From: Promethearchaeota archaeon
GTDB lineage: Archaea; Asgardarchaeota; Lokiarchaeia; Sigyniarchaeales; SOKP01
Assembly: GCA_030599585.1 (NCBI GenBank)
Contig: JAUVNS010000002.1
Coordinates: 345,282-409,281, forward strand
DNA length: 64,000 nt
Reading direction: 5' to 3'
The notes below the pieces were generated by a model. The model searched no databases. It had not been told where the DNA came from and was given only the letters and a program-made list of their open reading frames with translations. A program made the translations under genes and the position numbers. Positions 10,771 through 44,900 of the stretch are shown piece by piece. Within the stretch, counting starts at the first letter, position 1, and every line of letters starts with the position of its first letter.

Positions 10771-10852
10771 TGTTCAGTCGATATTGAGGAACAGCATACG
10801 AATGTTCCCGAAACTGTTTAAGGAAATAAATTAGTAATAAGAGAAAGGATAG

Positions 10853-10953
10853 GGCTCGGTACGGGAATCGAACCCGTCTCTAGGGATTCACAGTCCCCAA
10901 TACTATCCATTTTACGGAGCTAGCTTTCTAAACCCCTCTATACAAACCGAGCC
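10853..10953 (-). tRNA. tRNA-His(GUG) with encoded G-1 and a 28-nt D-loop intron (about 10910-10937)
   Basis: Acceptor GCTCGGT/ACCGAGC with G-1:C73; anticodon arm GGGGA-CTGTGAA-TCCCT; T-arm ACGGG-TTCGATT-CCCGT; extra 28 nt in the D-loop; no encoded CCA. Confidence 0.92.
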
Positions 10954-11056: not shown

Positions 11057-11917
11057 TCATATAATAGTAATAGAATCTTTTATTAAAGCGTCTGGAATTG
11101 ATATTAAAGGGTTTCCTTTTAATTGTAATTGATTTAATAATTTTAACTCGACGATAGAGCTTGGTAATTCTTTTAACTTATTCCCCCCCAATTTCAGAGT
11201 ACCCAACGATTTCATCTTTCCAATTGTGGTGGGTAATTGTTCCAAACAATTATTTGATAAGCAAAAGTAGCTCAAGTTTTTGAGATTTCCAACCGACTCA
11301 GGTATTGATTTCAACCGATTGTTTCTTAGTGTTGTTTCAGTTAAACCCTCGAGCCTGCCGAAACCTTCAGGCAGTTTTTCCAACTTATTGTTCTTCAAGT
11401 AAAAGGTTTTTAGAGATTTTAGTTCCCCTATTGCCTCAGGTAGCGCTTTAAGACGATTACTGGACAAAGCTAAATGGTGAAGATTTATTAAACATCCAAC
11501 TGAACTCGGTATTGAAACGATGTTGTTTTCGGCCAAATTTAGGCTATGCAGTGAGGTGACTTTTGTTAGAGGTTCAGGAAAAACTCTTAACCTGTTACCG
11601 GCTATACTGAGAACTTCTAAGAATTTCAGTTTTTCGATTGCAATGGGGATAATTCCGATTGCATTTCTATCTAAATCTAATTCTCTTAACTTTGAAAACT
11701 TCCAAACAACAAGAGGAATTGAGGATAACCGACATGATACCAAACTAAGCTCCTTGATATTCCCGCCTTCAATCTCGAGGAAGATGCGACTCGAATTACC
11801 GTCTCGCTTTTTTTCGAAATTATTGCTTATCAAATTGTCTAATTCCAAAAGGTCATAGTATTCTTGCGAACTTAACCGCTCTTTACCCTCAAAATCTAAA
11901 TCTCTTATGTTTTTCAT
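11057..11917 (-). CDS. Leucine-rich repeat protein (about 9 23-aa repeats), candidate immunity protein
   Basis: Repeated LxxLxLxxNxLxxLPxxIGx; no signal peptide; starts 78 bp after the giant ORF's stop. Confidence 0.9.
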   Translation of the reverse strand: MKNIRDLDFEGKERLSSQEYYDLLELDNLISNNFEKKRDGNSSRIFLEIEGGNIKELSLVSCRLSSIPLVVWKFSKLRELDLDRNAIGIIPIAIEKLKFLEVLSIAGNRLRVFPEPLTKVTSLHSLNLAENNIVSIPSSVGCLINLHHLALSSNRLKALPEAIGELKSLKTFYLKNNKLEKLPEGFGRLEGLTETTLRNNRLKSIPESVGNLKNLSYFCLSNNCLEQLPTTIGKMKSLGTLKLGGNKLKELPSSIVELKLLNQLQLKGNPLISIPDALIKDSITII

Positions 11918-11995: not shown

Positions 11996-14900
11996 TCACA
12001 TCAAACCTCGACTTTCTAATTTTTGTCTTATGTCTTTTATGATGGAAGTGACCCAGTCTTCTGTAATCCATTTCTTATCGATCATCTGTTGAATAGTGTA
12101 AGTCTCCCCTCCATGGTTCATCTTAAGAAAATCTACCTTTGAAGTATCGACTACCCACTTCCCGTTCTCAAACACATATCTATTAGGGCCTTTATAGGAA
12201 TATGCTATTCTGTCGTTATTTTCCCATTCGTTGACAAATTCTATAAGGCGTTCTATATAGAGATCTTGAGCGGATTGTTCCCAGTACGATGGCGGCCTTG
12301 CAGCTTGGAAATCATTGCGCATCATACGCATTCGAGAATAATAATCTAGATTTTTCCTCGGTTCCAAGCTTGTGAATTTGTAATGCAAATCCCCCATCAT
12401 AATAAGATCCATTACGTCGTTTACCGTTTTATCGAAGTCAATGTGATGTCTAAATTTATTATTTTCGACATCATAGTTTTGGATTCCCTCTCCACGCCGC
12501 CCAGCTGGTAATAAACCTCCTTGATAAAGGAGTAATTCAACCCAATGCTTAGCTATAGTTGCTACTTTATAAAAATCGTCATGATAATCAACTTTTGTAG
12601 AATCAAGCAATTTTGGTTCATATCTAAGGTAAATATCATGAACCCCAGGATAATTTCTTTGATTGTCGGCATAAAAATCTCTAAAAGTTTTTTGCATAAG
12701 TATAGCTTGACCTTTCCTAATAGATTTGCTCAAGTCTGATACGAAATCTTCGAGGTTGTTAACTACACCCATATTATTTATATTCTTAACTTGTCCAGAA
12801 AGATATGAACTAGTTGTAGACGCTACCGTTCCTAATCCAATTCTATTATTGATCTCTGATACATCTAAGTATATCGATCCATGATATATATCAGATAGAT
12901 GCCAACTAGCAAGCAACATTACTTTTTGAAGAGGTTTGACTTCTTCATTAACAAGAAAACTGTTAGAAGCGCAGTATCTATTAATGGCTAATAAGGCTTC
13001 TTGAACTGATCTAGCTACTAACTTAGATTCTATACTATCTGAAATCCTAGATTCGCCCAAATTCTCTAACATAAATTCAGCAGACGATTTCCTGTATAAA
13101 CCGTAAATCATTCTGAGTAAATGTTCGGTTTTGACTACGCGCCCTAGTACTTGGGATCTTGAAAAAAGTCCGAAAAATTCGTTTAACCTGTTAATCGAAG
13201 GCCCGTGACCGTCCCTATTGGCAGGATCATGCTGGATTGCAAGCCTAAGATCCCCTAATAGTTTATCTACGTCAGGATTTTGATTCTGTAAGCCAATTTG
13301 TCTTCTATAATTCATTAATAATTCTTTAAATGCTTTCTTTGTTTCCTCTGTAAATTGTGGATCTTGATCTACACTAAATATCCATTTGTAAAGCTGGTTA
13401 TCAGTCCATAAGATGTTTACTCCGTTCTCTAAAGACAAGCGGGTAGTTCTAAATGCATCTCGACGTTGATTCAATGCTATAGCAAGCGGTCGCTCCTCAG
13501 TAATGCTTAAAATGTTTTTAATATCATTGAGTAAGATGTTCGTAGGATGATCTTCCCAATTTTCGTAACTATGGAAGTAATCAATAGTAACAGCCACTTC
13601 CGCTACGTAAATTTTACTGTCGATGTTATGATGGTTTTCTTCTAGCCAATCTGCAAGATTAGTAACGCGGTCTACAGGAATGGAAATGAGTTGAAAATCA
13701 TCGGAAATTATATACATCTTATAATTGCCGCTCACACCGAAATAAGTCAAAATCTCGTTTAATTTGTCTAAAGTGCTCATATCTGCTCTAAAAGCGTTCT
13801 GAACTAAAGAACGAGAGGCTTGGCTCTTTTTATGAATTAACACAAAATTGGGATCGTAGAATTCTAATCCGAACATATCTAAGAATCGCAAATTTGTAAC
13901 CCCTTCTTTAGCAAGTGCGTCTTTAATGATTTGAATTGTCTCTTTTTCTGCTTTTTGGACTCCAATCTTATTGTAATTTTTCTGGATTTGTCTAAATAGT
14001 TCTTTATATCCTCTAAATCTCTCTTCTTTTAATAGATACTTCTCGATCCATTCGTTAAAATATGGATCAAAGGCAAGTGTGTTAAACTTGTTAGCGAGAT
14101 TTTCTTTTTGAGTTCTACTATCGGGATTAATCTGACGAAGAGCAGTAACCGATGGAATGTTTTCTTTATTGGAGCCTTCTTGCGGTGCCTTAAATAGCTC
14201 GTGAAGGGCTTGAGGATCAACTTCCGAGGGTTGCTTTGTTTCTTGTCCAAAGTTTATGGTGTCAATATCTCCGACAATACTTATTAGGTTCTTTTTTCTT
14301 CTGTTGTGTCGCCACGACTTGAGATTAGCCATGGAAAGAGGCGACGCTTTTATTGAGCTGCCGACCATTTTCTTCAGACCGGAGAGCGCAGCGAAACTGA
14401 AGGTGCCGAAAAAGACGGCTGGAAGCGTCATAAACAACCCTTTAAGGAAGTTGCTTTCTAACAGCTTGCCCAACGAGCCCTTATTTTCTGCTGCTTCTTG
14501 CATTGCTTTCTGTTTTTGTTCGAAATCGGAGTTTATTTGCTGTTGAATCTCTGTCATTGACTGACCCGAAACGAGACCTTGTATAAGAGTAATTACGCTT
14601 TTTGAACTTATTGGAGCGCCTAGAACTAACTGGCCCATGGCTCCTTTTACTTCTCTGGCGGAGGTTGATAACGAAGACAACCAGAATCCTAAGTCGTCAG
14701 AGCCGCCTAATATACTTACGACGTTTTCGATTAGTGCTTCTCTAAATCCGTCTTGAATTATTTCTTCGAATACTTCTTGTATTGCACCTTTAACCGCACC
14801 TGTAAGACCTCCAAGAAGCGATTTTGATTGCTTTGCAATAAGCATCGCAACGCCTTTAGCTCCTGCCTCCGACGCTAATTTGCCTACGGCTGCTTGAGCC

Positions 14901-17900
14901 GCCCAAGAACCAAAATACGCTAAGGGAGCGCTTATTAACGTAGACCAGAACGTTAGAGTCTCCGTATAGGAAATCTCTGAAATCATATTAGCACTAATTT
15001 CTGCGAATGTATACTGACTGAAATAGTCCATAATGGTGTAAGAAGTAGCTTGAGCTAAAGCAAGTCGACTGGTTTCGTCGGTGGTGTCGGGAATAAATCT
15101 TTCGAATTCGATTCGAATTTTGTAGAATATAGTCTCATCGACCAATTTGCTAGCCCACGATTGAGCCAAGAAGTCTTCGAATCCTGAATATTTTTCCGAA
15201 ACGAGCGCTTCTATAGACTTAGTAAAGTATAGATTACCTCCATCGACCGTGTAGTCAGAATCGTTAACTAGTATGTCTTGAGCAAAATAATCGTTTAGGT
15301 GAACTTCTTCTTGAACAACGTCGATAAACACGGACGTAATGTTGTATTCGAAACCGTTATCGTTAAGAGGAACTTTCGCTCCATACAGAGCCGATTCTAC
15401 GTCGTCCATGGCATAAGCGTTAATCCCAGAAGTCTTATCGTAATCCTTACATCGAACGGTCACAGTAAGTTTTCCTAGCGCAGGTTGGATTTGGTCGAAT
15501 CGAGCTTGGCTTAGAACCACGGGTCGATACAAAATCGATAGCGGTAAGATAGTTTCTTGGATGGTGCTATTGATAAATTCGTAGCTCGGTGCTCCGTCTA
15601 TGCAATTAGGCTTTATAGCATCGAACGATCCTCCTGATTTTTCCATGACGATGGTCTCAAGCGCGCCTAAGGTGTTGAACGAGTGTAAGTTGTAATCGTT
15701 AAACAAGAATTCGGTGTTGTGGTAAGTGTAAAATGGTTTGGTGTTGTAATAAGGGAGCTCGCTTGTCATAAGTAAATAATCTAAATTGATGTCATCGTAA
15801 TCGAGGGCGGTGTAAGAATCAGGATTGGAACCTCCCATGTCCCAAATGTTTTCCCATAATAAATCTAAAAATCCTCCAAAAGAGTTCCATATTCGAAGTG
15901 GATTTGGAGGACTTACTAACAACTGCCCGGTATAAGTAGTCCCAGAATCCTTGCCACTCACGGTAGCGTAATATCCTCCTGGATGAGCTAATAGCGCTGC
16001 TGCCATCGTGTCTTGAAGAACTCTATCAAAAAGATTTTTTTCGTTGAGCGAAACCGGTTCTTGTGGTCCGCTTGAACTTGGGTAAAATGTGTCGGCCCGT
16101 TCTATGGATTGTGCCATGTGAAGTTTTCGATCGATGTTAAATTTTGTCATTAAAGTATATATAACAAGGTAAGTTAGCGTTCCCGCAGCTCGACCCGCAG
16201 CCTCTCCCGCTGCAATAGCTGCAAGAGTTCCTACGCCTAATGTCGCCGCTATACCAGCAGCAGTGACCATCGACGCAACTATAGCTGCTACTACCGCGCT
16301 CGCAATAGCCGCAGTTGTTGTCATAAAGACTTGTTCTATAATATCACCTACTAATTGTTCTCTGTAAGTCTCCCACGCTCTTGCGTAAGATTTGTGTCTA
16401 ATTTCGTAAAATAACTCGGTAAATTTAGGGTTTTTTTGGCTCGTTTCAGAAGTTTTGTAAATTTCGAAGATTTGATCTTTTGGTTTGTATTCTTTCCAGA
16501 ATTTATCGTCTTCGTTTAAAATATCGAATAACAAATCGTTATTTTTTAAATTGTCGAAGTTATAAATCCAATCAGAACCAAACATTTCAGTCTTTCTTCC
16601 GAGGTTGCTAAAATCGGTAATTGTGTTTTCTACTTGATCTAACTTTTCGTAGGGAGCAAAATCGTGTATGCCGTCGTAGTTCATTCCTATCGATATTACG
16701 TCGTATTTAGGAATTACTAATCTGCTTACCGTGTATAAGTTGCCAACTATGTACACTGTCTCGTAATAACCGTTAAGATCTGAATCTATGAAAAAGTAGC
16801 TACCTGAAGTTTTAGCAGATCCGTCCAAAAACGCGTCTTTATCAGAAGTGTAATAAACTTGACCGTCTGCCGGAGTGACCATAGCTCCAGTCACCTCAAA
16901 TTCAACCCAACCGTCGTTCTCTACGCTAGATTTAGATATTTTACCGAAATCGTTGTATAACGAATACCTATTTGGGATGCGAAGAATAATAGTCTTTTCG
17001 AAATAATTTGTGGAATAAGAAATTTCTCCATCTTCGTCAAATACTTGAAGAGAGTCGTATTTTATTGGAACGTTGTCTGAACTCCAAGTTGGACCCGTCC
17101 AAGTGATGTTTGCGGGACTCGCGTAAGGAAGTTCAGGATCGAAAATTATTTGTGATTGGGCGTTAGTGTCGATGTTAGTGACCGAGTGTTGATTGGAAAC
17201 ATCTTCAAAGAACCCTTCGACGCTTTCAACTTCGTTGTTTTTAAAGTCGTCCTTGTAAACCCTTTGTTCTTCAACCTCTCCTTCGTTATAATCAATAAAG
17301 GTTAAAGTCGAATATTCAACGGTGTCTACGTACGAAGTAGTGACATTTTCAGTAAATTTTCTATAAGTTGTGCTCAAAGTAGGAGCGTTCATGATGGCCC
17401 CAAGGTTTGCCGTGCTAAAATCGTTAGAATCGAGGTGTTCTTTCGTAAGAAATTCGTTAAATACAAAATCGTCTTTTGATCCAAACAAGGAAGCGGCGCT
17501 TTTCATTATATATTCGCCTAAAAAGATTAATACGTTCTGAAGTTTTGCAGCGAGTATTGTTTCTTTAAATTCCGTTACCTCGTAATATATGCTAACTTCG
17601 GTAGTCTCAAAGTTGGTAGATTCGTCTACCGTTCCGTCTCGGTCTTCGTCTACTTGCACGCTGTAGAAATTACTTTTAACGTGTTCTTCCTTGTTTATTT
17701 GCCTCTGCGTCGATTTCTGAGCCCAATAGTCAACATCTGGAAGCATCATCTTAGAAAGCGTGTAAAGCATTAACGGTATTATCAAGACTGATAATAATAG
17801 TTTGGCCATGTTAGGATCGTAATTGGCGAAAGTTTGATCGTCTACATCGAACCAATCTGTTCTTAGTTTTTCTTCTAAGTTTTTAGAGGCTTTTATCTCT

Positions 17901-20900
17901 CGATTCTCGAAATCTTGAATGACCGTATACCAATAAATCTCGCCTGAACCTTCTGGATCGTCTATACCGTATTTAATTATATCTGGAACGCCATCTCCAT
18001 CAATGTCGATCGTTTGCTTGTAATCGGATTCTCCGTCCATGTCAATGTCTGCTACATATATTATGGAGGTATCGTCGTAATATACTTCGAAATTATCGAA
18101 TTTTTCAGATGTGTAACCAATAAATTGACTTTCAGAACTAATGTCGGGGTTTCGAGAGAAACTAATTGATTCAAAAGAAGTGCTTTCGCTGGTAATAGTA
18201 TCAGATCCTTCAGCAAACAACGGAACGCCCGATTCAGATCTGAAATTGTAATCAATATCTACCGAACTGTAAAAAGTCTCGGTCTGATCTGATAAGTAGG
18301 TTTGGTTAAAATTATCGAGTAAAAATATTTCGGTATAGGTAGAAATTGGGGCGTACGAATAATTTACTATTGCTGTAATTTGATCAAAAACGTCCAGAAG
18401 ACCGTCATCCGAGTTCAGATCAATAATTGTTAAGTTGTTAGTTGTTTCGTCAAAATTTAGGCTAAAATTGACGTTATTTGTCAACATTTCCGTGTCAAAG
18501 GTAGGCGTTAATCCGATCACTTGATACAAACTAAGGTTAACAAAGTCGTTTTCGAAAGTAAGGTTGCCAAGGTCAAAAGTATGGGTGTATTCAGAAATTT
18601 CGGTGTATACTGAAAAAGTCTCGTAATAATATTGGACTACTCGATATTCCGATTCTTCTTTAAAAGAGTAAGCGATATTTTCGTAGGAGTGCGATGTGCT
18701 AAACTCTGAAAGCCAATCGTAATGCTCAGGTTTTAATAAGTAGTTGCAATCGTATACCGCCCTAATCGAGTCGAGATCGATGTTTTGCTCGTCAATTCGA
18801 ATAGATTCGGTCCAAGACGTGTTTGTAGCGTATTCAAAGAATAGGGTTGAATTAGCCTCGATTATTAAAGGTTCTTCAAATTCCATACCAAAATATTCTG
18901 GGTATTGGTTAAACGATGGGTTCCAGGTAAATGTATTGTTTGAAGGTTCAAAGTGTAATTGGTGATCGTTTCCGGTAATTCCTGCCGAATAATAATTGCC
19001 TTCCTTGTCGTATATGGTCAAATAATCTAACCAAGTACTATCAAGGTAAAACATTGGCAATTTATCGAGAACGAGTTGATAGGAATCGTCTTCAGGATCG
19101 GAATCGGATGTAAACATTTCGTGCTCTGAATATTGCCACACCCGACTATCTACGCTACCAAACGCGTCTGATGCCTCGTACGATTGTTCTAAAAGCACAA
19201 TTTCGCTTATAGTCAACTCGTATGTAGGGTTAGGCACAGAAATAACTATATTACTGAAGTCTAACTCGTCAACTCCTTCTGAACTAAATAAGGAAGTTAA
19301 GTTAAGCTCTATCTTAACCGCCTTCACTCTTCCGTTAAATTCGGTATCAAATGGAGTAATTTCTAATGGAACTTGGTAATAATAATCGGCGGTAAATTCG
19401 GAATAAGAACCGGTAGAATTGGCGTTAATTAACAACAGCTCCGCTTTAGGAAGGTCTGGGTGCGAATCGTAGTTATATCCCTTGCTTTCGAAGTAAGCTT
19501 TACCGATACCTACGGCTATTCCTCTCTTTACTGGAGAGCTATATTTTAGGACTATCACTTGATCGTCCTTAAAGCTACCCCTTTCGCTGGTATTGTTGTT
19601 GAAATAAATCGTCGGAACGTGTAAAGTGTAAATATCGTTTTCAAATGTATAAGTTATGTTATTTGAGAAAGAAAGAAGTTCCAACATGTCGTTAAATACG
19701 TAAGCTAGATGAGTCCCGTTAACCATAAGGTCACTTTCTAACGCGATGTGCATGTATTCGATTTCATCTTCCATAAAGGATACGAGTTCGCTATCCCATT
19801 CAACAGTTTGTATTCTGATAATACCTTTAAGGTTGTCTTGAGAGTATTTTTCGTCGCTCCTAAATTCTGGAGTAAATCTTATCGTTTCTAAGGTGTTTGT
19901 GCTAGTAGGCAAATCAACTTTTAGGGTGTAATCTACCATAATTAATTCTTCAGCGGTGATAACTTTTGTTAATTGCGTCATTAAGCCTGAATTATCGAAA
20001 AGTTCGATCGTGACGTATTCTAAACTTTCTATGTTTTTTATATTGGTGTCTAAATACAAAACAAGGTAATCTCCGTTGTGTAGTCCTGTAAGCATATCTT
20101 GATCGTAATTCTGCAATTCTTGAGAAACGTTGAATTCTAATTGATCTCCTTCTTTAAGATAGGCAGCAACTTGAGACGCTTGACAAACTATGTTCTGCAA
20201 GGTAGATTTGTTCTCGTTCATGAAGTATGGAGCGTCTAAGTTAGGTATCACGCTAAAATTTTGTGCGTTTATAATGTTCCAACTTGTTACGTTTAATGTT
20301 GATGTAATTCCTTCCGTGGGATCGTACGAGAATTGGTAACTATTTAGTTCTTTATCGATATTATTTGATATAAACGATACGAAGAATTCTTTGTTCGCCC
20401 GAATTGAAGATACCAAACTGTTTTCATCGTTTTTGATGGTTATTTTTCTAGAGTCAACATCTACTGAATAGTGAATAGAATCTAAGAATATCATCTTGCC
20501 TCTTGCGTTGAAATAAAACACGCTTATCGCCTCCTCTCCTTCAGCTTCGATAATATCGACGTAATTATCTAATTCTGGGCTCATCATATCGTATACATAT
20601 CCTGAAACGGAACTATCAAAAAATTCAGAGCTTATCTCGAATCTCTCTTCGTAGTAATCTCTGCTATTTAGCCGATAACTTAAGTATAAGTTGTATATGT
20701 TGTCGATCGAAAGGCTGTATTCGAAAGGTGTAATTATGGAACCTCCGCTTAATTTTCGGTATTTTTCCCGATAAGTGTTTAACGAGTCTAAAGTCGTCTC
20801 AAATAGGTTTGTCCACGGATAAGTAACCATTATGAAGTGTTTGCGATCGATTAACCCTGGTTGAAGTTTATATTTGTATTTTAACTCAACATTTGTGTTA

Positions 20901-35900: not shown

Positions 35901-38900
35901 CCTACGGCTTCCATCCATCTATATTCGAGGTCATCGTATCCAGAAATGTCCCAATCTGCGGATCCTACGTACCCAGGACCCCATTCCCAACCCCCGGTTG
36001 TTGTAGTTGCTATCGAGGTAATCCTCGATGGGTTAATGTATTCGTCTATTCCCGTAGTAGCGGCGTCGTAAAAACTATTATTGTTTTCGTATAACCTTGT
36101 GAAAGGATTAGGGGCGTAGATATTGGTACCATCTATTCCAGTTACCGCGGTAAATTCTGGTATCTTGGAAACGCCGTTTGCAATAAAACCAGTTTCGTTA
36201 AATAAATAATCGCCTAAGTTGTCGGAACTATCGATAGAATAAGTAGGGTTAAAATTGTAAGTAATTATGTTATTTTGCTGCATATCGTCGTTAAAACTGT
36301 AAATAACATCAATGTCGGCGGAAATATGGGCGAACGAATTTTCAGGAGTAATTACGCTATCTTGAAGGTCTAAATCGAGAGTTGCAACGTGAGTTTCTTT
36401 CTCCTTGTAGCTTAGAAGCAAAGATTTGTATTTTTCGAAATCTTGTTGGTCAACAATCCTTTTGTAATATTGCGATTCGAGATATTTAACGATTATTCCA
36501 TCCGTCTCTGAAGCAAAACGCGATTCAATTCTTGGTTTCGTTGTTGGTTCGGTATCGATAATGTTAAGTAGATCGGTTGGATTGTCGTTGATAAACCCAC
36601 TCCATTTTTGTAGAGCACTATCGTAATAAATCGAAACTACGTTGTCGAAACCAGTTGGCGCAAGGTCGCCGCTTGCTATAGTAAGAGACACGTCGTCGTT
36701 TACCGCCACAGTAACTTCTCCCGACCCCGGACCCACTTTCTCGAAAGTGAAAGCAGCTCGATACAGGTCGTGTTCGACGTTCCATTTCTTTAAAGTGATT
36801 AAGCACAATTTATCTATGTGAACGGTAAAAGCACTGGCAGTTTCAATGTTAATTCTAAACAAGAAAGGATTAATTCCACTTGTATAGTTGAATTCGTACA
36901 ATTGACTTTCTGGAATAGTAAAAACAATATCGCCGTCTTTAATGGCGTGAGTAATAGTTTCGTATTGTTTCGTGTTCCAATTTTTTAATCTAAACACTGC
37001 TCCTTCCAACGAAGCGCCGGTAGCGAAACCCGTTAAGCGAATTTCTACATCAGTTACTTCTTCCATATCGGTTTCGTCAAGTTCGAATTCGAAATTAATA
37101 GTGTAAGCGTTATTAATATCAGAACTAACGTTGTAAAATTGACCGTCTTTAGCGTGAGCGTAACTAGCGGATGATGGAGGAATAACCTTACTACCGTCTA
37201 TTATATAGGGTTTATTTATTCCCTCAGTAAATTCGTGTTCGGACACTTTTGTGTCGATAATGCTCGCCCCTTCCATTACAGTAATAAAATTTGCCATAAA
37301 ATATTGGCCGTCAGTTAAGTTTCCTGAAAACTCTAACTGATCGAATTGTAAAGTCTCTGACGGTTCTAAAGTTAAAATTTGAGTGCTAAAATCGGTATTT
37401 CCTTGAGGAACCACGTTAAACGAGTGTTGAGCTTGTCCGTCGCTGTATAGCGTTAAGTTAATCTCGTTTCCCGTTTTTGCTTTAAATTCGATTATTATTT
37501 GATCGTTAGGGGTAACCGTTATATTGTTGGCGTAAGAATTACTTTTCAAGCTAAGGCTTTCGGGATCGATGTTATCCGTTTGCATGTATAACATTCCACC
37601 CTCTTGGTATTTCTTAGTTGCTTGATATTTAACAAATGAATCGTAAAAATTAACATATCCGCTTGGAGACACTAAGTCAAAATATTGACCTAGAGAGTCT
37701 AGATTTCCCAACTCAAAAAGTATTTGGGTGGGACCAGAAATAGTGCCAATTGGTTTTAGAGAAACGAATTCGATAGGTGAAGGTCTATTGCTGTTCCAAG
37801 TGATCGTCTCTTCGTCAAAACTTCCGGTTGTATAGACTTGCACGTTTGGACTAAGGTAGGCGTTTTCTGAGGTTACTTCGTAATAGCTCTTGTCGTCTGG
37901 TCCTAAACCTAGGTATTCGAAAGGTTCAATTTCAATATAAGTCTCGTATTGTTCAGGCACGTTAAAACCTTCTATCCAATCTACTTTAAGGTTGTGGCTA
38001 ACAAAACTAGCAGTTAACACTTTAATTTCGATAGTGTCCGATCTTTCTACGCGTACTGATCCCGATAGAGAATTTTCGCTACCAGAAGCTATTATAACGC
38101 CGTTATATTCTATAGCTAAATATTCTATGTCTTCGTCGGTAGATATATCGAAATAAATATCAACAAGATTGCCGTAAGGGAAGATTGGGGTGCTCCCTAA
38201 CCTCTGATAACTAACTTCAACTTCGTCTAGCGGTCCATTAGGTATAGAATGGGTGATGTGATATTGACCGTTGTCTGTCTTCGTATCCCAGACATCGCCT
38301 CCATTTGCATAACCCTTATTTATAACACAAGACATGGCACACGTTCCGTAAGAATCTAACCAATTATAAACCGAAAGGTCGTCCCCGTTAAAATTTGTGT
38401 TCGGATAAAGCGAGCGAACTACTGTTTCTTGGATTGGGTTTTTAGAGATATAAATAGTATCTTGAGCAGTTCCGAACAAGTCCCAAGGAGTGGTTTGGAA
38501 GTTATCTCTAAACTTGATGGTTTTAGGTGATTCTATAAGGTTAAACCCGCTATAACCGTAAAGTTCAACTCCGTCTTGAGTAAAATCGATTTTATCGCTA
38601 ATGTGCTCCCCTCCTATGGCGTTTGATTCGAAATCGTCGTAATTTAAATAATCAGTACTCGTTAATGCAAAAGTGTTGAAGTTTGAAACGCATAAAAATG
38701 GTTTTGTACCTGAGTCTTGTGAAGATTCTTTTTCCGTTAAAATCCTAACTTTAAATTCGTGCAAATCGTTTAAAAAGTCGTCGTAAAAATCAGCTTGAGT
38801 AAAGGTCGGAACGGTCGTATACGCTGGAAAATCTGAGGTGGTAGTAAAAAAAGCTTCAGGATCGATAATTAAATTGTTCAACTGGAACTTATTTGCGTTG

Positions 38901-41900
38901 TAATTGGAATCGTAAAAGAGCATTTTGTAATCTTCGTTGGTAAAAAGGCTGTTAACTTTGTGTCCGGTATCGGCGTTATCTAAAAAACTTCCGCCGTTGG
39001 TAACAGAACTATCAAAGACTATGTTTCCGGAACCGTCTATTGTATTTGGGAATACATCACCATATCCAATCGTGTTAATCTGAGATAGGCTTAACGTACC
39101 CCATTTAGGCCTGAACCTATCAGCGTCACTATAGGGCGTCTCAGGATCCCAGCCCCAAAAATCAAGATCTAAACTACTTGCAGAATATTTATCATTAACG
39201 TCTAATAAAGCCATTGGAATTGATTCCCACCTGGCTTGATCGTAGTTCCACAATTGTATTGACAACGGATATTCTTTAACAAATCCAGTTGAAGAAATAG
39301 ACGCGTCGAACGATATTTGAATGGAGTCCAAGTCGTCTTTGCTGACAACTGGAAGTTTATACGAATATTCAAAACCAAACTCTCCACTAACACCTTCCAT
39401 AAAAGTGGTTGTATATTGAGTCCAATTTAACAATACCGACTCGAGTTCTTCTAATGAAGCTCCTTGAGTAGCAGGATTGCTCTCGGTTACTTTCTCTAGT
39501 TTGAAGTAGTATAACTTGGCGTGAAACGCGGGCGACCCTTCTAACCCCGATATAAACCTTATTGAGTTAACATTTTCTATAAATTCACGATCAATATCAA
39601 TTACTTCTCCTTGCCTAAAGGTTTGACTATTAATTTTTAAAACTCCTTCTTCTCCACCAGTGCCAAAAGTTTCAATGTGACAGCTTAAGTAAAAATCGCC
39701 GTTGTATTCACCCTCTATGTTGAATATTGCACTAATAAAGTCGCAACTTTCTGCTTGTACCCAGCCAGAATTCATCTGATAATAAGTTAAATCGTCTTTT
39801 TCAGTGTTTGAAAGTAATCCTGAACCAGATCCGGAAGGATAAGTTACGCTTTGTAGATAAGTAGGATCGATCTCTTGGGGGAGTATTCCAGAATCATAAA
39901 TGAGGGAAATTGAGGAGTTATAAGTCTCTAAATCGGTTAATTCGTTTCTTACGAACACCTTTTGTTCGCCATCAAAATTATAAAGTCCGTCTGAATTTAA
40001 CCTGTCTTGAATATCGGGGTAATACATCTGCGAAAAGTTGTAATTGTCCGAGATGTACGGATTTGAAGCCCATACGCCGTCAACGTAATTATTTTCGAAA
40101 TTACCTCCAAATTCAGATTCGCTGTCTTTACCGTTTAAGTTTTCAGATAAAATTCCAGAATCGTAGGAGTCGCCGTAATATATTAAAGAATTTTCTAGTT
40201 CAGGCATCGAGGTATATTCAGAACCCCAGTTATTTCCCGTCCATCCATTTTTAATAGTAGGATAAATTACCGTATTTCCTAACCCAGAAATAACCGGAGT
40301 ATTTTGATATGTCATACCGTTTGGTAATAAATTCCAATTTGCGTAAGGATCGGAATACCGCGTTGTAGGATTCAACCATAAAAGCGGAAGAGCTGAATCA
40401 GTAAAGAAAGTTCCGAACGCAGATGTTTCTTGAGCGCTCGAAGTGCCTTTATACGATTTAAAGGACGGATCGACAGCAGTTGTCTCTTCAGCTTTGAAAG
40501 ATTCGAACGCGTAAGCAATCTTAAGGAATGCTAAGTTAGACCAAACAGAAGCTAGGTCTACTTGTACCTGAGTTTTTGAATAGCGATATTTACTGGAACT
40601 TAGTTCGTACCAGTTGTTATCTCCTGCCAACTTATACGAAATTTTCGAAATCGACTTTACGGGATAATTATTAAAAAGTATTGTAGGGTAATAGTCGGGT
40701 TCTAAATTCGCTTTAGAAATCACTTCGTGAACGTAGACTACGGGGCTTGTTATCGAAGTCGCGCTTTCTAAATAGGTAATTTTTGTTTGATATAACCCCG
40801 TTTTAGAAGCAATTACTAATTTTTTAGCGTTGTTTTCTTGAATGGTCAAGAGATCTAGTATTTCGAACTTAGTTTCGTCAAATCCCGACAACTCAAAAGG
40901 CGTCCAAATTTCTGTGCCTAAATTTCTCCTTAAAGCTATAACAGCGTCCATCTTACCGATAGATAATCGCTCAACCCCTAAAATTACAGTATCTTGACCG
41001 TTTATGGTTTCGTATTCGATGACGTCGATTTTTCCCAAAATAGATTCGGCAACTATGGATTCGAACTCAAAAATAGCGTCAAACTCGAGTAATTGCGAAT
41101 AGTAGGCACCGTCCATAAGTCCGCCAACCAACACTGCCTTTCTATCGCTAGCAGAGAAGCGGTTTACTATCTTAATTGAAGTAGGTTCAAAATTAAGCGG
41201 GCTATCGATGTTTTTGACTAAAATAAGGTTCAAATTTGAATCAAACGCGTATTTCCAGAACGAAAATTCTGATTGTTGGTCTTGTTGAATTAATACCATG
41301 TTTGTATCAGAAGAAGTAGAATCGTATTCGAGATCGAAAGACAAATAGTTGTATCCTGATAAACTCGTAACGTTTTCTTTTAGGTTCCAAGTACCCGAAT
41401 CTAAATATATTACGTCAATTTGGTTTGGAGAAATCCTAATGATTTCGAACTTGTTGTCGTCGTTTACGTCGAATAAAGTAAAAACTTGATCGGTAATTGA
41501 TGGGATAGTATTTTCGCTACTTACTGCGGTATCTAACTCCCAGCCGGTTATATTGTTAAAGTTAAAGACCGATACGTCTAAGTTACCTCCCAATTCACCT
41601 ATAACGATCGGTTGCCAATCTACTGAACTGTCAGAAAAGACTCCCCACGAACCCCATAGGTCAGAAACTGTTCCTTTGTTAATTTTTAGAGGTAAATACT
41701 CGTAATTGTTGTCGTAAATCGAATCCACGAAAGTTTTATCTTTGCTAATGTCCCAAGTAATGGTATAATCGGCGGTATCCCCAGCAGAAATTATGGTCGA
41801 GGAGTTATAGGCAATTGGTATCCATTCTCGCTTGTTAGGATTGTACCATTCGGCAATTACGTCCCATAAGGTTTCAGATGAGCCTTGGAAGTAGTTTTCG

Positions 41901-44900
41901 ATGGTTCCTTCTATCGTTTGAAGGTTTGAAGTAAGCGAAGAATTGTATTCAAACACGTGTCCAAATAACACATCTGTGAGCAATAAAACTTCCGTGTAGT
42001 CGTAAAGGTTAACGTCTTCTGATTGGGTAATGTAATTTCCAGCGCGATCAAACGCATATATTTTAAGCGAGTAGTTTTCTGGAAGCATTGGATCTAAAGC
42101 GTCTCCGTCCCAATAAAAATTCCACAAGTTTTCTTCTCCGCTAAAGTAAGCCCTTCCAACGAATGTATTGTTTGGACCATAGATCATGATTCTTTGGATG
42201 TCGGAGAGTCCCGATATTAAGGGTAGTATAGAAGACACATTTACTTGGATGGTACTATCGGAATAATTATCGGAGCCAAATATAATTACTCCCTCATCAG
42301 CCGAATTAACTCCTAGTTGCCAATTAAAGAGCGATTGGGAGGGTGGAGAATTCTCGATAGAGTTATCGTAAATACATTTATATTTGTGAGTTTGTAACAT
42401 GTTTCCTAGCCCATCTTCTGCTTCAAACCACGCTAAAAATTGTTGTTCTTGCGATAGAGAGAGGTGGTCAGTTATGTCAAAATAAGATTTTCCAGGGGAG
42501 AGGAGTTCCCATTTTTTGGAAGTGTTGTTAAAGGTTAGAGTGATTTTATTGTCAACTAATTCGTAAAATTGGGCGGTTATGTTGTTTGTTAAAGAAGGGG
42601 ATAACAAATACCTGTATTGTTCGTCGATTTTTAGGGTTATTGAGGTTCCGTCTAAAAGCACAGTAAACTTATCAACTAAATAATCTCCAATTTTTAAGTT
42701 TTGGATGCTTTTAATGTTAGACACAACCGTATTTATTGGAGTTCCATATCCAGTAATTTTATAATGAAAAGTTTCGTAATTTAAACTGCCTAAAATAGAT
42801 ATGTTGTACCAACTAAGTGGGTTGGTGTAGTAGAAGGAAATATTTTTTACTCCTAATTGATTGGCAATGGTAGGATCAATTGGGCTCCAATCAAAACCGT
42901 CAAATAATTCGTCAAAAGCAGTTATTTCGATATATTTTTGGTCGCTAAAATAAATGTTTTCGGTTAAAGTATTGTTGTATATATTTTCGTTTTCGGCAAA
43001 AATTTGCTCTTCGATCGATTCTATTTGGGTAAATTGAGAGTCTAAATAAACATTAATTATTGTGTAGGTTCCAACATTTCCTGCGTTATCGGTAGCAATA
43101 AGGCTTAAATTATAGTATCCGTTATCTAAACCCTCTGAAGCTATTAGAATAGTCCAGATATTATTTTTATAAAATATTGTATAGGCTAAATTATAGGCTA
43201 TAACGCCCGAAGTTACGTGTAAAGCTTCAACGATCAACGAGAATCCAGAAATTTCGGTGATAGTTGCGTTAATTTCAAATAAATCTGTCCAATAAGAAGT
43301 TAAAGTGTTGACATTGGAAATAACAGGATCTGTTTTGTCAACGGTAATTAAAAAGGTATAGATAGTTTGCAACCCTTGAGTATCGTTTAAAGTAAAATCA
43401 ACATATTTTGTGCCTTCAGATAGGTTAGTATCGTTGAAAGTAAAAGTATAAAGACTCTCTGCTACAGACCAGTAGCCATCGATTGAGGAATTAAGAGAAA
43501 AATCTGATACTCCAGATAGATCGTGTACTACAAACGAGAGAACGCTCGATTCGGGATCTATTGAGCAATTATTCGCGAATTGGCTGTAAACTTGTGGACC
43601 TTGATAGTCTATTGTGATTGAATTATCGATGACAAATTGAGAAATTGCTCCTGTTATGCCATAAAATTCTCCAATAATTGTGTAATTATCTTGAGGTAGT
43701 TGCGAAAAATCATAACTTCCGATAAATTGATCGGAACTGTGGAACATAGTTGAGACGCCAATATCTAAGAATACTGGGTTAAAACTATCGTAAGAGCCGT
43801 CAAGATCATACGGTGTGAGCAAAGTGATTAAAATCGTGCCGCTTACGTGGTCAACGAAATAAGAGTGGTCGTATGAAGTGCCGTTTATCCTTACATCTTC
43901 GATCGAACATAAATCTTCTCCAATCGACAAACTAGGGATATCTACTGTGAACTTATTGTCCGTTATTACGATATCTGAGCTTGGAGTAGAATAAAACACA
44001 GTAATTCTAACATCATCGATATTAGCCTCCGTTGTAACTGAGCCTGAAGAATTTACGAAGATGTCTACTCCAAAAGTACTGCTATTGATATCTGCAACAG
44101 ACCACGAAGCGTTCCAAAGGTCAGTTGATCCTCCATAAGAATCGTAGAAATCGTTATCGTTAGTATCCCAATATCCACCTTGAGCCCTCGTAAGCCCCAC
44201 TTGTCCAGAAGCTTTTCTAAGGAAAATTTCTCCATCCCAAATAGAATCGGTTATCGTACTAAACCGGTCTATATCTACTTTAATTCCAAGGATAGTCGCT
44301 TCGGTAGGTATTGAAAATCCAAAATCTGTTAATCTAAGCCAATCCGAACTAGTCTCGGAGGATGTATCAAAAGAAACGAAAGTCTCGTCGTTGTCTTGAC
44401 CGATAACTTTGGTCGGATTGATCCACTCTTCTTGGCTTTGTGGAGGTTCGGTGTAATGTATTCTAATCTCCAGAAAATCTATTCTCGCATCGACTGTACT
44501 TAATCCCGTAGAGTTCACAAATAAATCAATCCCAAAATCGGGACTGTTAATCTGAGCGTAATTCCAGAAGGCGCCCCATAGTTCGGAACTTCCCCCATAA
44601 GTGTCGAAATTATCGTTTGTAGTATCCCACCATTGATCGTTTGCTAAGTTAACTCCAACCCGACCCGATGAATTTCTAAGGAAGAACTCAACTTCTTTTA
44701 TAGCGTTGGCTAACGAAGAATCCCTGTCTATACGAATTTCTATACCGGTTATCGTTGCATCGCTCGATAGAGTAAAATCGAAATCGGTTAAGCGGAGCCA
44801 ATCTGATGTAATCTCTGAGCTTGAAGTAAAAGAAGATATAGCGTTATTGTTGTCTTGGGTAGTAGTATTGCTTGGATCTTGCCAAAGTCGTCCCGAAAAC

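What the first reader, a model, noticed from the sequence alone, without database searches (positions are those of the whole stretch)
12383..12545. HNH-like nuclease motif ~150 aa from the giant protein's C-terminus
Seen: WVELLLYQGGLLPAG...FRHHIDFDKTVNDVMDLIMMGDLH, with His at aa 13,698, 13,699 and 13,719. Known: this fits the beta-beta-alpha-metal consensus HHIDxDKxNNxxxNLxxLxxxxH, and LLxxQGG precedes the Zn knuckle in many HNH proteins. Here the structural Asn is Asp and the Zn cysteines are absent. Inference: a divergent Zn-less DNase warhead, or an inactivated one.
Basis: partly seen in the sequence, partly recalled or inferred. Interest (0 to 1): 0.85.

Follow-up and report, generated by a model that had tools for sequence, protein, structure and literature searches.

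The report
Divergent HNH nuclease tail with LRR partner
The histidine motif near the end of this 13,847-residue Lokiarchaeal protein is the conserved active-site core of a real but very divergent, cysteine-free HNH-type nuclease domain, which sits on a swappable C-terminal tail always encoded next to a leucine-rich-repeat protein, a layout that resembles bacterial toxin-immunity cassettes.

Summary
**Observation.** Confirmed: WVELLLYQGG...FRHHIDFDKTVNDVMDLIMMGDLH is at window 12383-12545 (minus strand), with His at aa 13,698, 13,699 and 13,719 of a 13,847-aa ORF in an archaeal genome whose relatives are named Lokiarchaeota.

**HNH fold: well supported.**
- No Pfam, NCBIfam, PADLOC or PDB sequence match.
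- The motif is conserved in relatives: HH in 36/36 distinct sequences, Lys in 35/36, Asp/Asn in 30/38, the last His in 39/43.
- AlphaFold2 (pLDDT 90) puts HH at the end of a strand and the last His in the first turn of a helix.
- Structure searches return almost only HNH nucleases, at low scores (Cap5, Z 5.4).
- The family profile also reaches canonical HNH_3 domains.

**Context: toxin role likely, not shown.**
- The domain ends a ~770-aa tail that begins just after the last hydrophobic segment.
- A same-genus relative is 73-90% identical up to aa ~13,080, then unrelated, and has a different LRR neighbour.
- An LRR gene abuts the domain in every locus examined except two that gave no usable DNA next to the domain.
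- 5'-truncated copies keep the LRR gene.

**Open.** Nuclease activity, LRR binding, topology and delivery are untested.

**Verdict.** A new variant of a known kind. Earlier scan notes concern this same genome only.

The parts
11996..53539 (-). Giant ORF of 13,847 aa. It has a Lys-rich N-terminus (1-650), about 7 hydrophobic segments (651-892), an acidic S/T/D/N/Y-rich body, further hydrophobic segments at 11,911-33, 12,403-70 and 13,033-56, and a non-acidic tail.
   Evidence: No Pfam hit anywhere in the protein.
14372..14443 (-). Last hydrophobic segment (aa 13,033-13,056), followed by KSWRHNRRKK. It marks the junction before the variable tail.
   Evidence: sequence. Identity to the G252 relative collapses just after it.
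11999..14299 (-). Replaceable C-terminal tail cassette, aa 13,081-13,847. It is non-acidic, has no N-x-S/T sequons, and has lower GC3 and CpG than the pre-tail.
   Evidence: G252:C229 is 73-90% identical over aa 12,241-13,080 and then 15-31%. Other giants share only up to aa ~13,160-13,385. Composition and sequons.
12557..13624 (-). All-helical pre-HNH region (aa 13,306-13,661). Its fold is not assigned. There are weak HTH-like hints only.
   Evidence: AF2 pLDDT 81. Best VIA rows are the SaPI repressor Stl (Z 5.8) and the ChiS DNA-binding domain (Z 5.0), both below meaningful level for helical models. HTH_3 at E 1.2e-4 in homolog P0018.
12248..12577 (-). HNH / His-Me-finger-like core domain, aa 13,655-13,764 (model residues 1-110).
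   Evidence: AF2 model. VIA wide: Cap5 Z 5.4, IscB HNH 4.7, retron HNH 3.9, EcoKMcrA 3.9, GVE2 HNH 3.5. Atlas rows are HNH clusters. hhalign to HNH_3: E 6e-4 with the motif in register.
12443..12448 (-). H13698 and H13699, at the C-terminal end of strand 1. Predicted roles: metal ligand and general base.
   Evidence: 36/36 conserved. Strand 42-45 of the model ends at H45. Roles are assigned by analogy with the superfamily definition (PMC5714182).
12407..12409 (-). D13711, at the position of the structural Asn of H-N-H, immediately before strand 2.
   Evidence: D 18, N 12, E 4 among relatives. Aligned to the N of 'NL' in HNH_3.
12383..12385 (-). H13719, in the first turn of the core helix. Predicted metal ligand.
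   Evidence: 39/43 conserved. The helix starts at model residue 64 and the His is residue 65.
11999..12247 (-). Family-specific C-terminal extension of the domain (aa 13,765-13,847): four short strands and two helices.
   Evidence: Conserved in type-A relatives.
11057..11917 (-). 286-aa LRR protein gene, 78 nt downstream on the same strand. There is no hydrophobic N-terminus. It is the conserved partner of the tail.
   Evidence: Pfam LRR_8 at 1.6e-31. 63-66% identical orthologs follow type-A tails in L002, L005, L007 and L018. LRR genes, co-directional or convergent, lie at all other loci except two uninformative ones.
10852..10920 (-). tRNA-His just beyond the LRR gene. Context only.
   Evidence: ARAGORN.

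Best explanation
**What it is.** The motif is the active-site core of a genuine, unclassified, cysteine-free member of the HNH (His-Me finger) nuclease superfamily. The core spans aa ~13,655-13,764 and is followed by a family-specific extension to the C-terminus.

**Inferred catalysis.**
- H13699, at the end of strand 1, is the general base.
- H13698 and H13719 hold one divalent metal ion. H13719 is in the first turn of the helix. The conserved E13726 may help.
- D13711 takes the place of the loop-fixing Asn.
- The substrate is most likely DNA.

**Context.** The domain closes a ~770-aa tail that starts right after the last hydrophobic segment of the giant protein. This tail and the adjacent LRR gene behave as one exchangeable cassette.

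**Most likely role.** A nuclease effector (toxin) whose cognate LRR protein binds and silences it in the producer. That would make it a Lokiarchaeal analogue of bacterial polymorphic toxin-immunity modules.

**Shown.** The motif, its conservation, the predicted fold, the LRR linkage and the cassette swap.

**Inferred.** Catalysis, LRR binding, toxicity and delivery.
For: **Fold**
- AF2 pLDDT 90.3, pTM 0.87, with the motif residues on the canonical elements.
- 8 of the 11 best of 48,161 PDB representatives are HNH nucleases. The top hit is Cap5 7rwk_B: Z 5.4, rmsd 2.8 A, 86 residues.
- ESM-Atlas shape hits are HNH, HNH_2 or HNH_3 clusters. Weak Foldseek rows include Cap5 and Cas9 HNH.

**Sequence bridge**
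- The family profile hits G267:C76, G215:C102 and G255:C25. The same segments match Pfam HNH_3 or HNH.
- hhalign to an HNH_3 alignment gives E 6e-4, with HH on HH and D on N.

**Conservation**
- One search gives the counts for the catalytic positions.

**Cassette behaviour**
- G252:C229 is 73-90% identical up to aa 13,080 and then at noise level.
- Its LRR neighbour is of another subtype, only 28% identical over a partial match.
- LRR genes follow type-A tails at 63-66% identity.
- An LRR gene is adjacent in 15 type-A loci in either orientation. One locus has three LRR modules.
- LRR genes are also found next to 9 of the 15 other giant tails fetched.
- 5'-truncated copies keep the LRR gene: frames of 2,033, 1,583, 252 and 121-140 aa.
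- Distribution is patchy: 13 of 135 genomes of one family and none of 265 other genomes of the phylum.

**Precedent**
- LRR immunity proteins are listed for bacterial polymorphic toxins (PMC3482391).
Against: - No significant sequence match to any curated HNH model for this protein.
- All structural Z-scores are below 6, and hhalign probabilities are only 28-34%.
- Residue-level superposition could not be done.
- The structural Asn is Asp here.
- No known secretion, processing or trafficking domain was found.
- The basic stretch after the last hydrophobic segment, the loss of acidity and the absence of sequons suggest the tail lies in the producer's cytoplasm. No delivery route is apparent.
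- Several relatives are soluble 340-650-aa proteins without hydrophobic segments.
- Among the three same-genus type-A copies the tail is not hypervariable: 37-62% identity throughout.
Confidence: 0.6

Rival explanations
1. The domain is an active HNH nuclease that works inside the producing cell. It would be the cytoplasmic effector of a membrane-spanning giant sensor, or of soluble relatives, held in check or switched on by the LRR protein. This would be a defence, abortive-infection or cell-death module rather than a delivered toxin.
For: - The tail follows a hydrophobic segment with a basic flank, and it lacks the acidity and sequons of the body.
- The LRR protein has no signal sequence.
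- Soluble standalone relatives exist.
- The best structural matches are defence effectors: Cap5, retron and Septu HNH.
- One relative lies next to an integrase.
Against: - No match to any PADLOC defence model.
- No sensor or signalling domain was recognised.
- The swap of tail plus LRR on a conserved body, and the truncated copies that keep the LRR gene, are more typical of toxin-immunity cassettes.
Confidence: 0.22
2. The domain has the HNH fold but is not a nuclease. It would be a nucleic-acid-binding or protein-binding module that docks the LRR protein, or DNA, to the cytoplasmic end of the giant protein.
For: - Asp stands in place of the canonical Asn.
- No curated HNH model matches.
- LRR genes also accompany giant tails in which no HNH motif was found, for example G242:C74 and G239:C48.
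- Inactive His-Me fingers are known (PMC5714182, group 21).
Against: - The catalytic His, both candidate metal ligands and a Lys are almost invariant across sequences that otherwise share 23-30% identity. This is hard to explain without catalysis.
- Several relatives carry Asn at the D position.
Confidence: 0.13
3. The motif is a chance resemblance in an unrelated domain.
For: - HH-x-H patterns alone are not significant.
- All similarity scores to known HNH domains are weak.
Against: Conservation, placement on the secondary structure, three structure searches and the profile bridge to Pfam HNH_3/HNH all agree.
Confidence: 0.03

Closest known systems
HNH / His-Me finger nucleases, HNH_3-like subgroup (PF13392; motif HHxDxxxxNNxxxNL...H)
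   Same: - Beta-beta-alpha core.
- HH at the end of strand 1, and a His in the first helical turn.
- Lys and Asp/Asn at the corresponding spacing.
- No Zn knuckle, as in many members (PMC5714182).
- Remote family members pass Pfam HNH_3/HNH.
   Different: - No Pfam hit for this protein.
- Asp stands for the structural Asn.
- The spacing is shorter by 2-3 residues.
- It has its own N-terminal helix (W...VELLIxQaG), a conserved E/Y/F/W/Y helical continuation, and an 80-aa C-terminal extension.
Bacterial polymorphic toxin systems with nuclease C-termini and Imm-LRR immunity (CdiA-CT/CdiI, Rhs, MafB; Zhang et al. 2012, PMC3482391)
   Same: - A very long membrane or surface protein.
- A C-terminal nuclease domain.
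- A sharp junction, after which close relatives differ.
- The adjacent small gene is exchanged together with the tail.
- Truncated 3' copies are retained with that gene.
- Loci with several LRR modules occur.
- The distribution across genomes is patchy.
   Different: - The host is an archaeon, and no T5SS, T6SS, T7SS, Rhs, HINT or pre-toxin domain is present.
- The tail follows a transmembrane-like segment and may be cytoplasmic.
- Soluble standalone forms exist.
- Toxicity, immunity and delivery are untested.
- That paper reports such systems as generally absent from archaea, except some methanogens and haloarchaea.
CBASS effector Cap5 (HNH + SAVED), the best structural match
   Same: HNH fold over about 86-105 residues, including the helix that precedes the hairpin.
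   Different: - No SAVED sensor domain.
- 12-16% identity.
- A different genomic context, with no cyclase gene.
Ribonuclease inhibitor-type LRR proteins (by analogy only; from general knowledge)
   Same: A small cytoplasmic LRR protein encoded beside, and presumably binding, a nuclease.
   Different: - Binding is not shown here.
- The repeat type and the nuclease family differ.

Membership tests
His-Me finger (HNH) superfamily | Beta-beta-alpha core fold | tested here: met
   The AF2 model (pLDDT 90.3) has strands 42-45 and 58-61 and a helix from residue 64. The best VIA and Atlas matches are HNH domains, though at low scores: Z up to 5.4, TM 0.31-0.39. This is a predicted model, not a solved structure.
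His-Me finger (HNH) superfamily | Nearly invariant catalytic His at the C-terminal end of strand 1 | tested here: met
   H13699 is model residue 45, the last residue of strand 42-45. It is present in 36/36 relatives.
His-Me finger (HNH) superfamily | [quoted passage not shown] | tested here: met
   H13719 is model residue 65 and the helix starts at 64. It is conserved in 39/43 relatives. Metal binding itself was not tested.
His-Me finger (HNH) superfamily | Asn in the loop between the two strands | tested here: inconclusive
   This protein has Asp (D13711). Relatives have D 18, N 12, E 4. The position aligns to the N of 'NL' in HNH_3.
His-Me finger (HNH) superfamily | Metal-dependent nuclease activity | not testable with these tools
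   Needs an enzyme assay.
Pfam HNH (PF01844) / HNH_3 (PF13392) | Score over the curated gathering threshold | tested here: not met
   No HNH family is listed at E up to 1 for the last 601 aa. No HNH_3 hit in the window's genome. Remote relatives found by the family profile do reach the thresholds: L017 PF01844 at 25.4 bits, G267:C76 HNH_3 at 27.2 bits.
Treble-clef Zn-knuckle HNH | CxxC pairs that bind structural zinc | tested here: not met
   There is no Cys in aa 13,655-13,764. This is not required for the superfamily (PMC5714182).
Polymorphic toxin system (sensu Zhang et al. 2012) | Variable C-terminal domain on a conserved body, with a sharp junction | tested here: met
   G252:C229 is 73-90% identical up to aa 13,080 and 15-31% after it. 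Other giants share the pre-tail module but have other tails.
Polymorphic toxin system (sensu Zhang et al. 2012) | Cognate immunity gene next to the toxin end, exchanged together with it | tested here: inconclusive
   Adjacency and co-exchange of an LRR gene are shown. Immunity function and binding are not shown.
Polymorphic toxin system (sensu Zhang et al. 2012) | Standalone or orphan toxin-tip cassettes with immunity genes | tested here: inconclusive
   5'-truncated copies of 2,033, 1,583, 252 and 121-140 aa each keep an intact LRR gene. They lie at other loci, not in arrays behind a full gene. Assembly artefacts are not excluded.
Polymorphic toxin system (sensu Zhang et al. 2012) | Recognisable secretion, trafficking or release domain | tested here: not met
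   Pfam returns nothing over all 13,847 aa. Archaeal export routes for such proteins are unknown.
Known anti-phage defence systems (PADLOC) | Match to a defence-system protein model | tested here: not met
   No hit for the tail, the LRR protein or relatives at E up to 0.1.

The most novel reading that the evidence does not exclude
One family of Lokiarchaeia may have its own polymorphic toxin system, evolved independently of the bacterial ones. In this reading, 11,000-20,000-aa membrane-anchored surface proteins carry exchangeable C-terminal HNH nuclease cassettes. Each cassette is paired with a fast-evolving cytoplasmic LRR inhibitor. The system would be used for contact-dependent competition or kin discrimination between Asgard cells. 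A nuclease-inhibiting LRR protein is reminiscent of the eukaryotic ribonuclease inhibitor.
Probability: 0.3. Interest if true: 0.85.

Novelty: new variant of a known kind. Interest (0 to 1): 0.62.

Why it matters
- **A first functional handle.** The giant genes of Asgard archaea are noted in the literature but are functionally blank (bioRxiv 10.1101/2023.11.21.568195; PMC8813620). This result gives one handle on one end of such a protein: a probable nuclease, with a defined set of residues to mutate and a defined partner gene.
- **A rare system in archaea.** If the toxin-immunity reading holds, it would show inter-cellular conflict machinery in the archaeal lineage closest to eukaryotes. Polymorphic toxins are reported as rare in archaea (PMC3482391).
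- **A new nuclease family.** It also adds a cysteine-free HNH family that current Pfam models miss.

Tried and rejected
**Searches that gave nothing**
- Pfam, NCBIfam and PADLOC on the last 601 aa: nothing relevant.
- Pfam on the other 13,246 aa: nothing.
- PDB by sequence, with the single protein and with the family profile: only chance rows.
- Foldseek against PDB: no row at E <= 0.001. HNH domains appear only among weak rows.
- ESM-Atlas feature search: all scores below 0.9, uninformative.
- Pfam on 14 alternative giant tails: nothing.

**Inconclusive tests**
- Complex prediction of the LRR protein with the domain: no verdict (score 0.01). This is neither for nor against binding.
- The pre-HNH region folded well (pLDDT 81), but VIA matches are at background level for a helical model. 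The HTH idea stays a hint.
- The N-x-S/T sequon count as a topology marker is weak. There are 0 observed against about 6.8 expected in the last 850 aa, but the cytoplasmic N-terminus has some, and the body is only slightly enriched.
- GC3 and CpG of the tail and the LRR gene differ from the pre-tail. The N-terminal part is low too, so this is not proof of transfer.

**Ideas rejected or not pursued**
- P0010's Cys-rich C-terminus looks like a Zn-type HNH by eye, but Pfam does not confirm it.
- The 2019 mBio survey of archaeal polymorphic toxins (Makarova et al.) could not be read.
- Chance motif: rejected (see rival explanations).
- An orphan-cassette array behind the giant gene: not present in this window. 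Only one LRR gene and then a tRNA follow.
Full report
**1. The observation**

The window holds one uninterrupted reading frame on the minus strand, 11996..53539, of 13,847 codons. W13666 is at nt 12542-12544, H13698/H13699 at 12443-12448 and H13719 at 12383-12385.

The genome is archaeal: the archaeal SSU model scores 1,458 bits. It is 4.85 Mb with about 36% G+C. Named relatives of the protein come from Lokiarchaeota MAGs.

The bare pattern HH...H is not statistically remarkable, so the question is whether it is conserved and where it sits in a fold.

**2. Conservation**

A full HMMER search of 1.84 billion representatives with the last 601 aa found 35 relatives. Many are fragments from short contigs.

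Aligned, they share RHHIxFxK-x6-(D/N)LILLG-xLH, followed by E, Y, F, W and Y in a helical continuation. Over 43 distinct sequences, including ORFs from sibling genomes:
- HH is present in 36/36 that cover the site.
- The Lys is present in 35/36.
- The Asp position is D 18, N 12, E 4.
- The last His is present in 39/43.

Overall identity among these sequences falls to 23-30%.

**3. Fold**

AlphaFold2 on the 21-sequence alignment gave pLDDT 90.3 and pTM 0.87. In the model:
- A helix (5-18) and a hairpin (22-25, 31-34) come first.
- Strand 42-45 ends in the two histidines.
- Strand 58-61 (LIMM) is immediately preceded by D13711.
- A helix starts at residue 64, with H13719 as its second residue.

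These are the positions that define the His-Me finger: the catalytic His at the C-terminal end of strand 1, Asn in the connecting loop, and His/Asn in the first helical turn. Many members lack the zinc knuckle (PMC5714182).

The structure searches agree:
- Foldseek found nothing significant, but its weak rows include Cap5 and Cas9 HNH domains.
- The Foldseek-independent search of 48,161 PDB representatives put HNH nucleases in 8 of the first 11 places. These are Cap5 7rwk_B (Z 5.4, rmsd 2.8 A, 86 residues, model 2-110), IscB 4.7, Cap5 4.1, retron HNH 3.9, EcoKMcrA 3.9, Cap5 3.9, IscB 3.6 and phage GVE2 HNH 3.5. ScoMcrA, Cas9 HNH, PtuB, T4 endonuclease VII and ZRANB3 follow further down.
- The ESM-Atlas shape search returned clusters carrying PF01844, HNH_2 or HNH_3.

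Every score is low, partly because half of the model is family-specific. The agreement of the lists is the evidence, not any single Z.

**4. Sequence bridge to canonical HNH**

No curated model matches this protein. However, the family profile, run over 400 genomes of the phylum, gave weak hits with textbook motifs. Examples are RHHIDYDKTNNDLENL...H in G215:C102, HHIDFDKTNNDPDNL in G267:C76 and HHIDYNKENLNSDNLIALCQRCH in G255:C25.

The same segments match Pfam HNH_3 or HNH, some over the threshold. Profile-profile alignment to an HNH_3 alignment built from sibling genomes is weak (probability 28%, E 6e-4), but it places HH on HH and D13711 on the Asn of 'NL'.

I therefore file the domain in the superfamily, but not in any Pfam family.

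**5. Context: a tail cassette with an LRR partner**

*The LRR neighbour.* The gene 78 nt downstream (11057-11917) encodes a 286-aa LRR protein without a hydrophobic N-terminus.

Among type-A loci, an LRR gene abuts the 3' end of the domain in all but two. In those two the DNA next to the domain is missing or too short to read: L040 (P0034), where the contig ends at the gene, and L072 (P0010), a 1.5-kb contig.
- Co-directional: the window, L002/L009, L003, L005, L007 and L018.
- Convergent: L008, L019, L022, L023, L024, L010, L039 and L041.
- Flanking on both sides in L041, where one neighbour holds two LRR modules.

*Other giant proteins.* The family of genomes contains many 11,000-20,600-aa frames that share the pre-tail module. 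It is found in 47 of 135 genomes. The type-A domain occurs in only 13 of 135, and in none of 265 other genomes of the phylum.

*The swap.* The closest relative of the pre-tail, G252:C229, is 73-90% identical from aa 12,241 to 13,080. It then drops to 15-31% for the remaining ~770 aa.

The break lies just after the last hydrophobic segment (13,033-13,056) and its basic flank KSWRHNRRKK.

Its LRR neighbour is of another repeat subtype and only 28% identical over a partial match. In contrast, LRR genes beside type-A tails are 63-66% identical to the window's. So tail and LRR gene are exchanged together.

*Type-B tails.* The alternative 'type-B' tails (G252, G214, G191, G194, G242:C77, G158) carry RHHF...RK.S....D...T....H at the same distance from the C-terminus. 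They align to the type-A profile over 68 columns (probability 34%, E 4e-4). Type B occurs in 40 of 135 genomes. The nuclease-like domain is therefore a general, fast-diverging feature of these tails.

*Truncated copies.* Copies cut at different points on the 5' side each keep an intact LRR gene: frames of 2,033 and 1,583 aa in G242 and G247, 252 aa in G247:C94, and 121-140 aa in L002/L009.

*A limit.* Among the three same-genus type-A copies the tail is not hypervariable.

**6. Mechanism**

*Shown:* the motif, its conservation, its placement on a confident model, the LRR linkage and the cassette swap.

*Inferred from the superfamily (PMC5714182):*
- H13699 activates water.
- H13698 and H13719 bind one metal ion. 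The conserved E13726, seven residues on, may help.
- D13711 fixes the loop.
- The enzyme cuts nucleic acid, probably DNA.

*Inferred from context and from precedent.* The LRR protein binds and silences the tail in the producer. Imm-LRR is a listed immunity class in bacterial polymorphic toxin systems, which that survey found rare in archaea (PMC3482391).

*Unresolved:* where the tail is. Loss of acidity, absence of sequons and the basic flank suggest the cytoplasm. Soluble standalone relatives exist. These points fit equally well with an intracellular effector, which is the main rival. No export or release domain was detected.

**7. Comparison and novelty**

The domain works like an HNH nuclease and meets the structural definition of the superfamily, but it fails every curated sequence model.

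The locus works like a polymorphic toxin-immunity module in four respects: position, sharp junction, co-exchanged neighbour and truncated copies. It lacks any known trafficking part and has no functional test.

I found no paper linking Lokiarchaeal giant proteins, HNH and LRR. The literature notes giant Asgard genes without assigning function.

I class it as a new variant of a known kind. Earlier notes of this scan on the motif, the LRR gene and the 3' tip concern this same genome only.

**8. Verdict**

| Claim | Confidence |
|---|---|
| Motif is real and is an HNH-type core | about 0.85-0.9 |
| Domain is an active nuclease | about 0.6 |
| Toxin/effector paired with an LRR inhibitor | about 0.5-0.6 |
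| Delivered to other cells | about 0.3 |

Noticed in passing
G000:C23 (L082) and G000:C47, outside the window: The same genome has two more giant frames (13,906 and 14,552 aa) with a homologous pre-tail module. The C23 frame is followed by a convergent 359-aa LRR gene, and its tail has no HNH-like match.
   Followed up: partly
G252:C229 (L081, L088); G214:C135, G191:C7, G194:C3, G242:C77, G158:C69 (L074-L080): A second 'type-B' tail family carries RHHF..RK.S....D...T....H about 170-190 aa from the C-terminus. It occurs in 40 of 135 genomes, on giants, on short ORFs and on broken copies.
   Followed up: partly
P0010 / L072: A 435-aa metagenomic protein shares the helical pre-HNH region but ends in a Cys-rich part with two CxxC...HH...CxxCH units instead of the cysteine-free domain. 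Pfam does not recognise it.
   Followed up: partly
window 10852-10920 (-): A tRNA-His gene lies directly beyond the LRR gene. Giant-gene elements of Heimdallarchaea ('aloposons') are reported to sit at tRNA integration sites (PMC8813620). No integrase was looked for here. ARAGORN's ends differ from the intron-containing model in earlier notes.
   Followed up: no
L002 / L009 versus G247:C143 (L018, L032-L033): At one syntenic locus (CTP-transferase-like, Roadblock/LC7, X, LRR, Rpb7, Spt4), X is a 1,583-aa frame in G247. In G236 and GCA_013375475.1 it is only a 121-140-aa remnant lacking the HH motif, while the LRR gene stays intact.
   Followed up: partly
L051, L056, L058-L061, L064, L065, L067, L070 (sibling genomes): ORFs of 470-810 aa with HNH_3 motifs of the form HHINFDxxDNRxENLW, in several cases two Pfam HNH_3 hits per frame. 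There are also ~1,250-aa frames with a single HNH_3. Both are unrelated to the giant tails.
   Followed up: no
G207:C13, around 141-149 kb (L085): An open frame of 20,619 aa carries the same pre-tail module. It is the longest seen in this family of genomes.
   Followed up: no
window 11999-14299 and 11057-11917: The tail and the LRR gene have GC3 of 0.32-0.35 and about 3 CpG per 100 nt. The pre-tail has 0.40 and 5.8. The Lys-rich N-terminal part is also low.
   Followed up: partly
L040 (GCA_048882605.1): A distant soluble relative (P0034, 339 aa) lies next to a phage-type integrase and a NikA-like gene, which suggests carriage on a mobile element.
   Followed up: no
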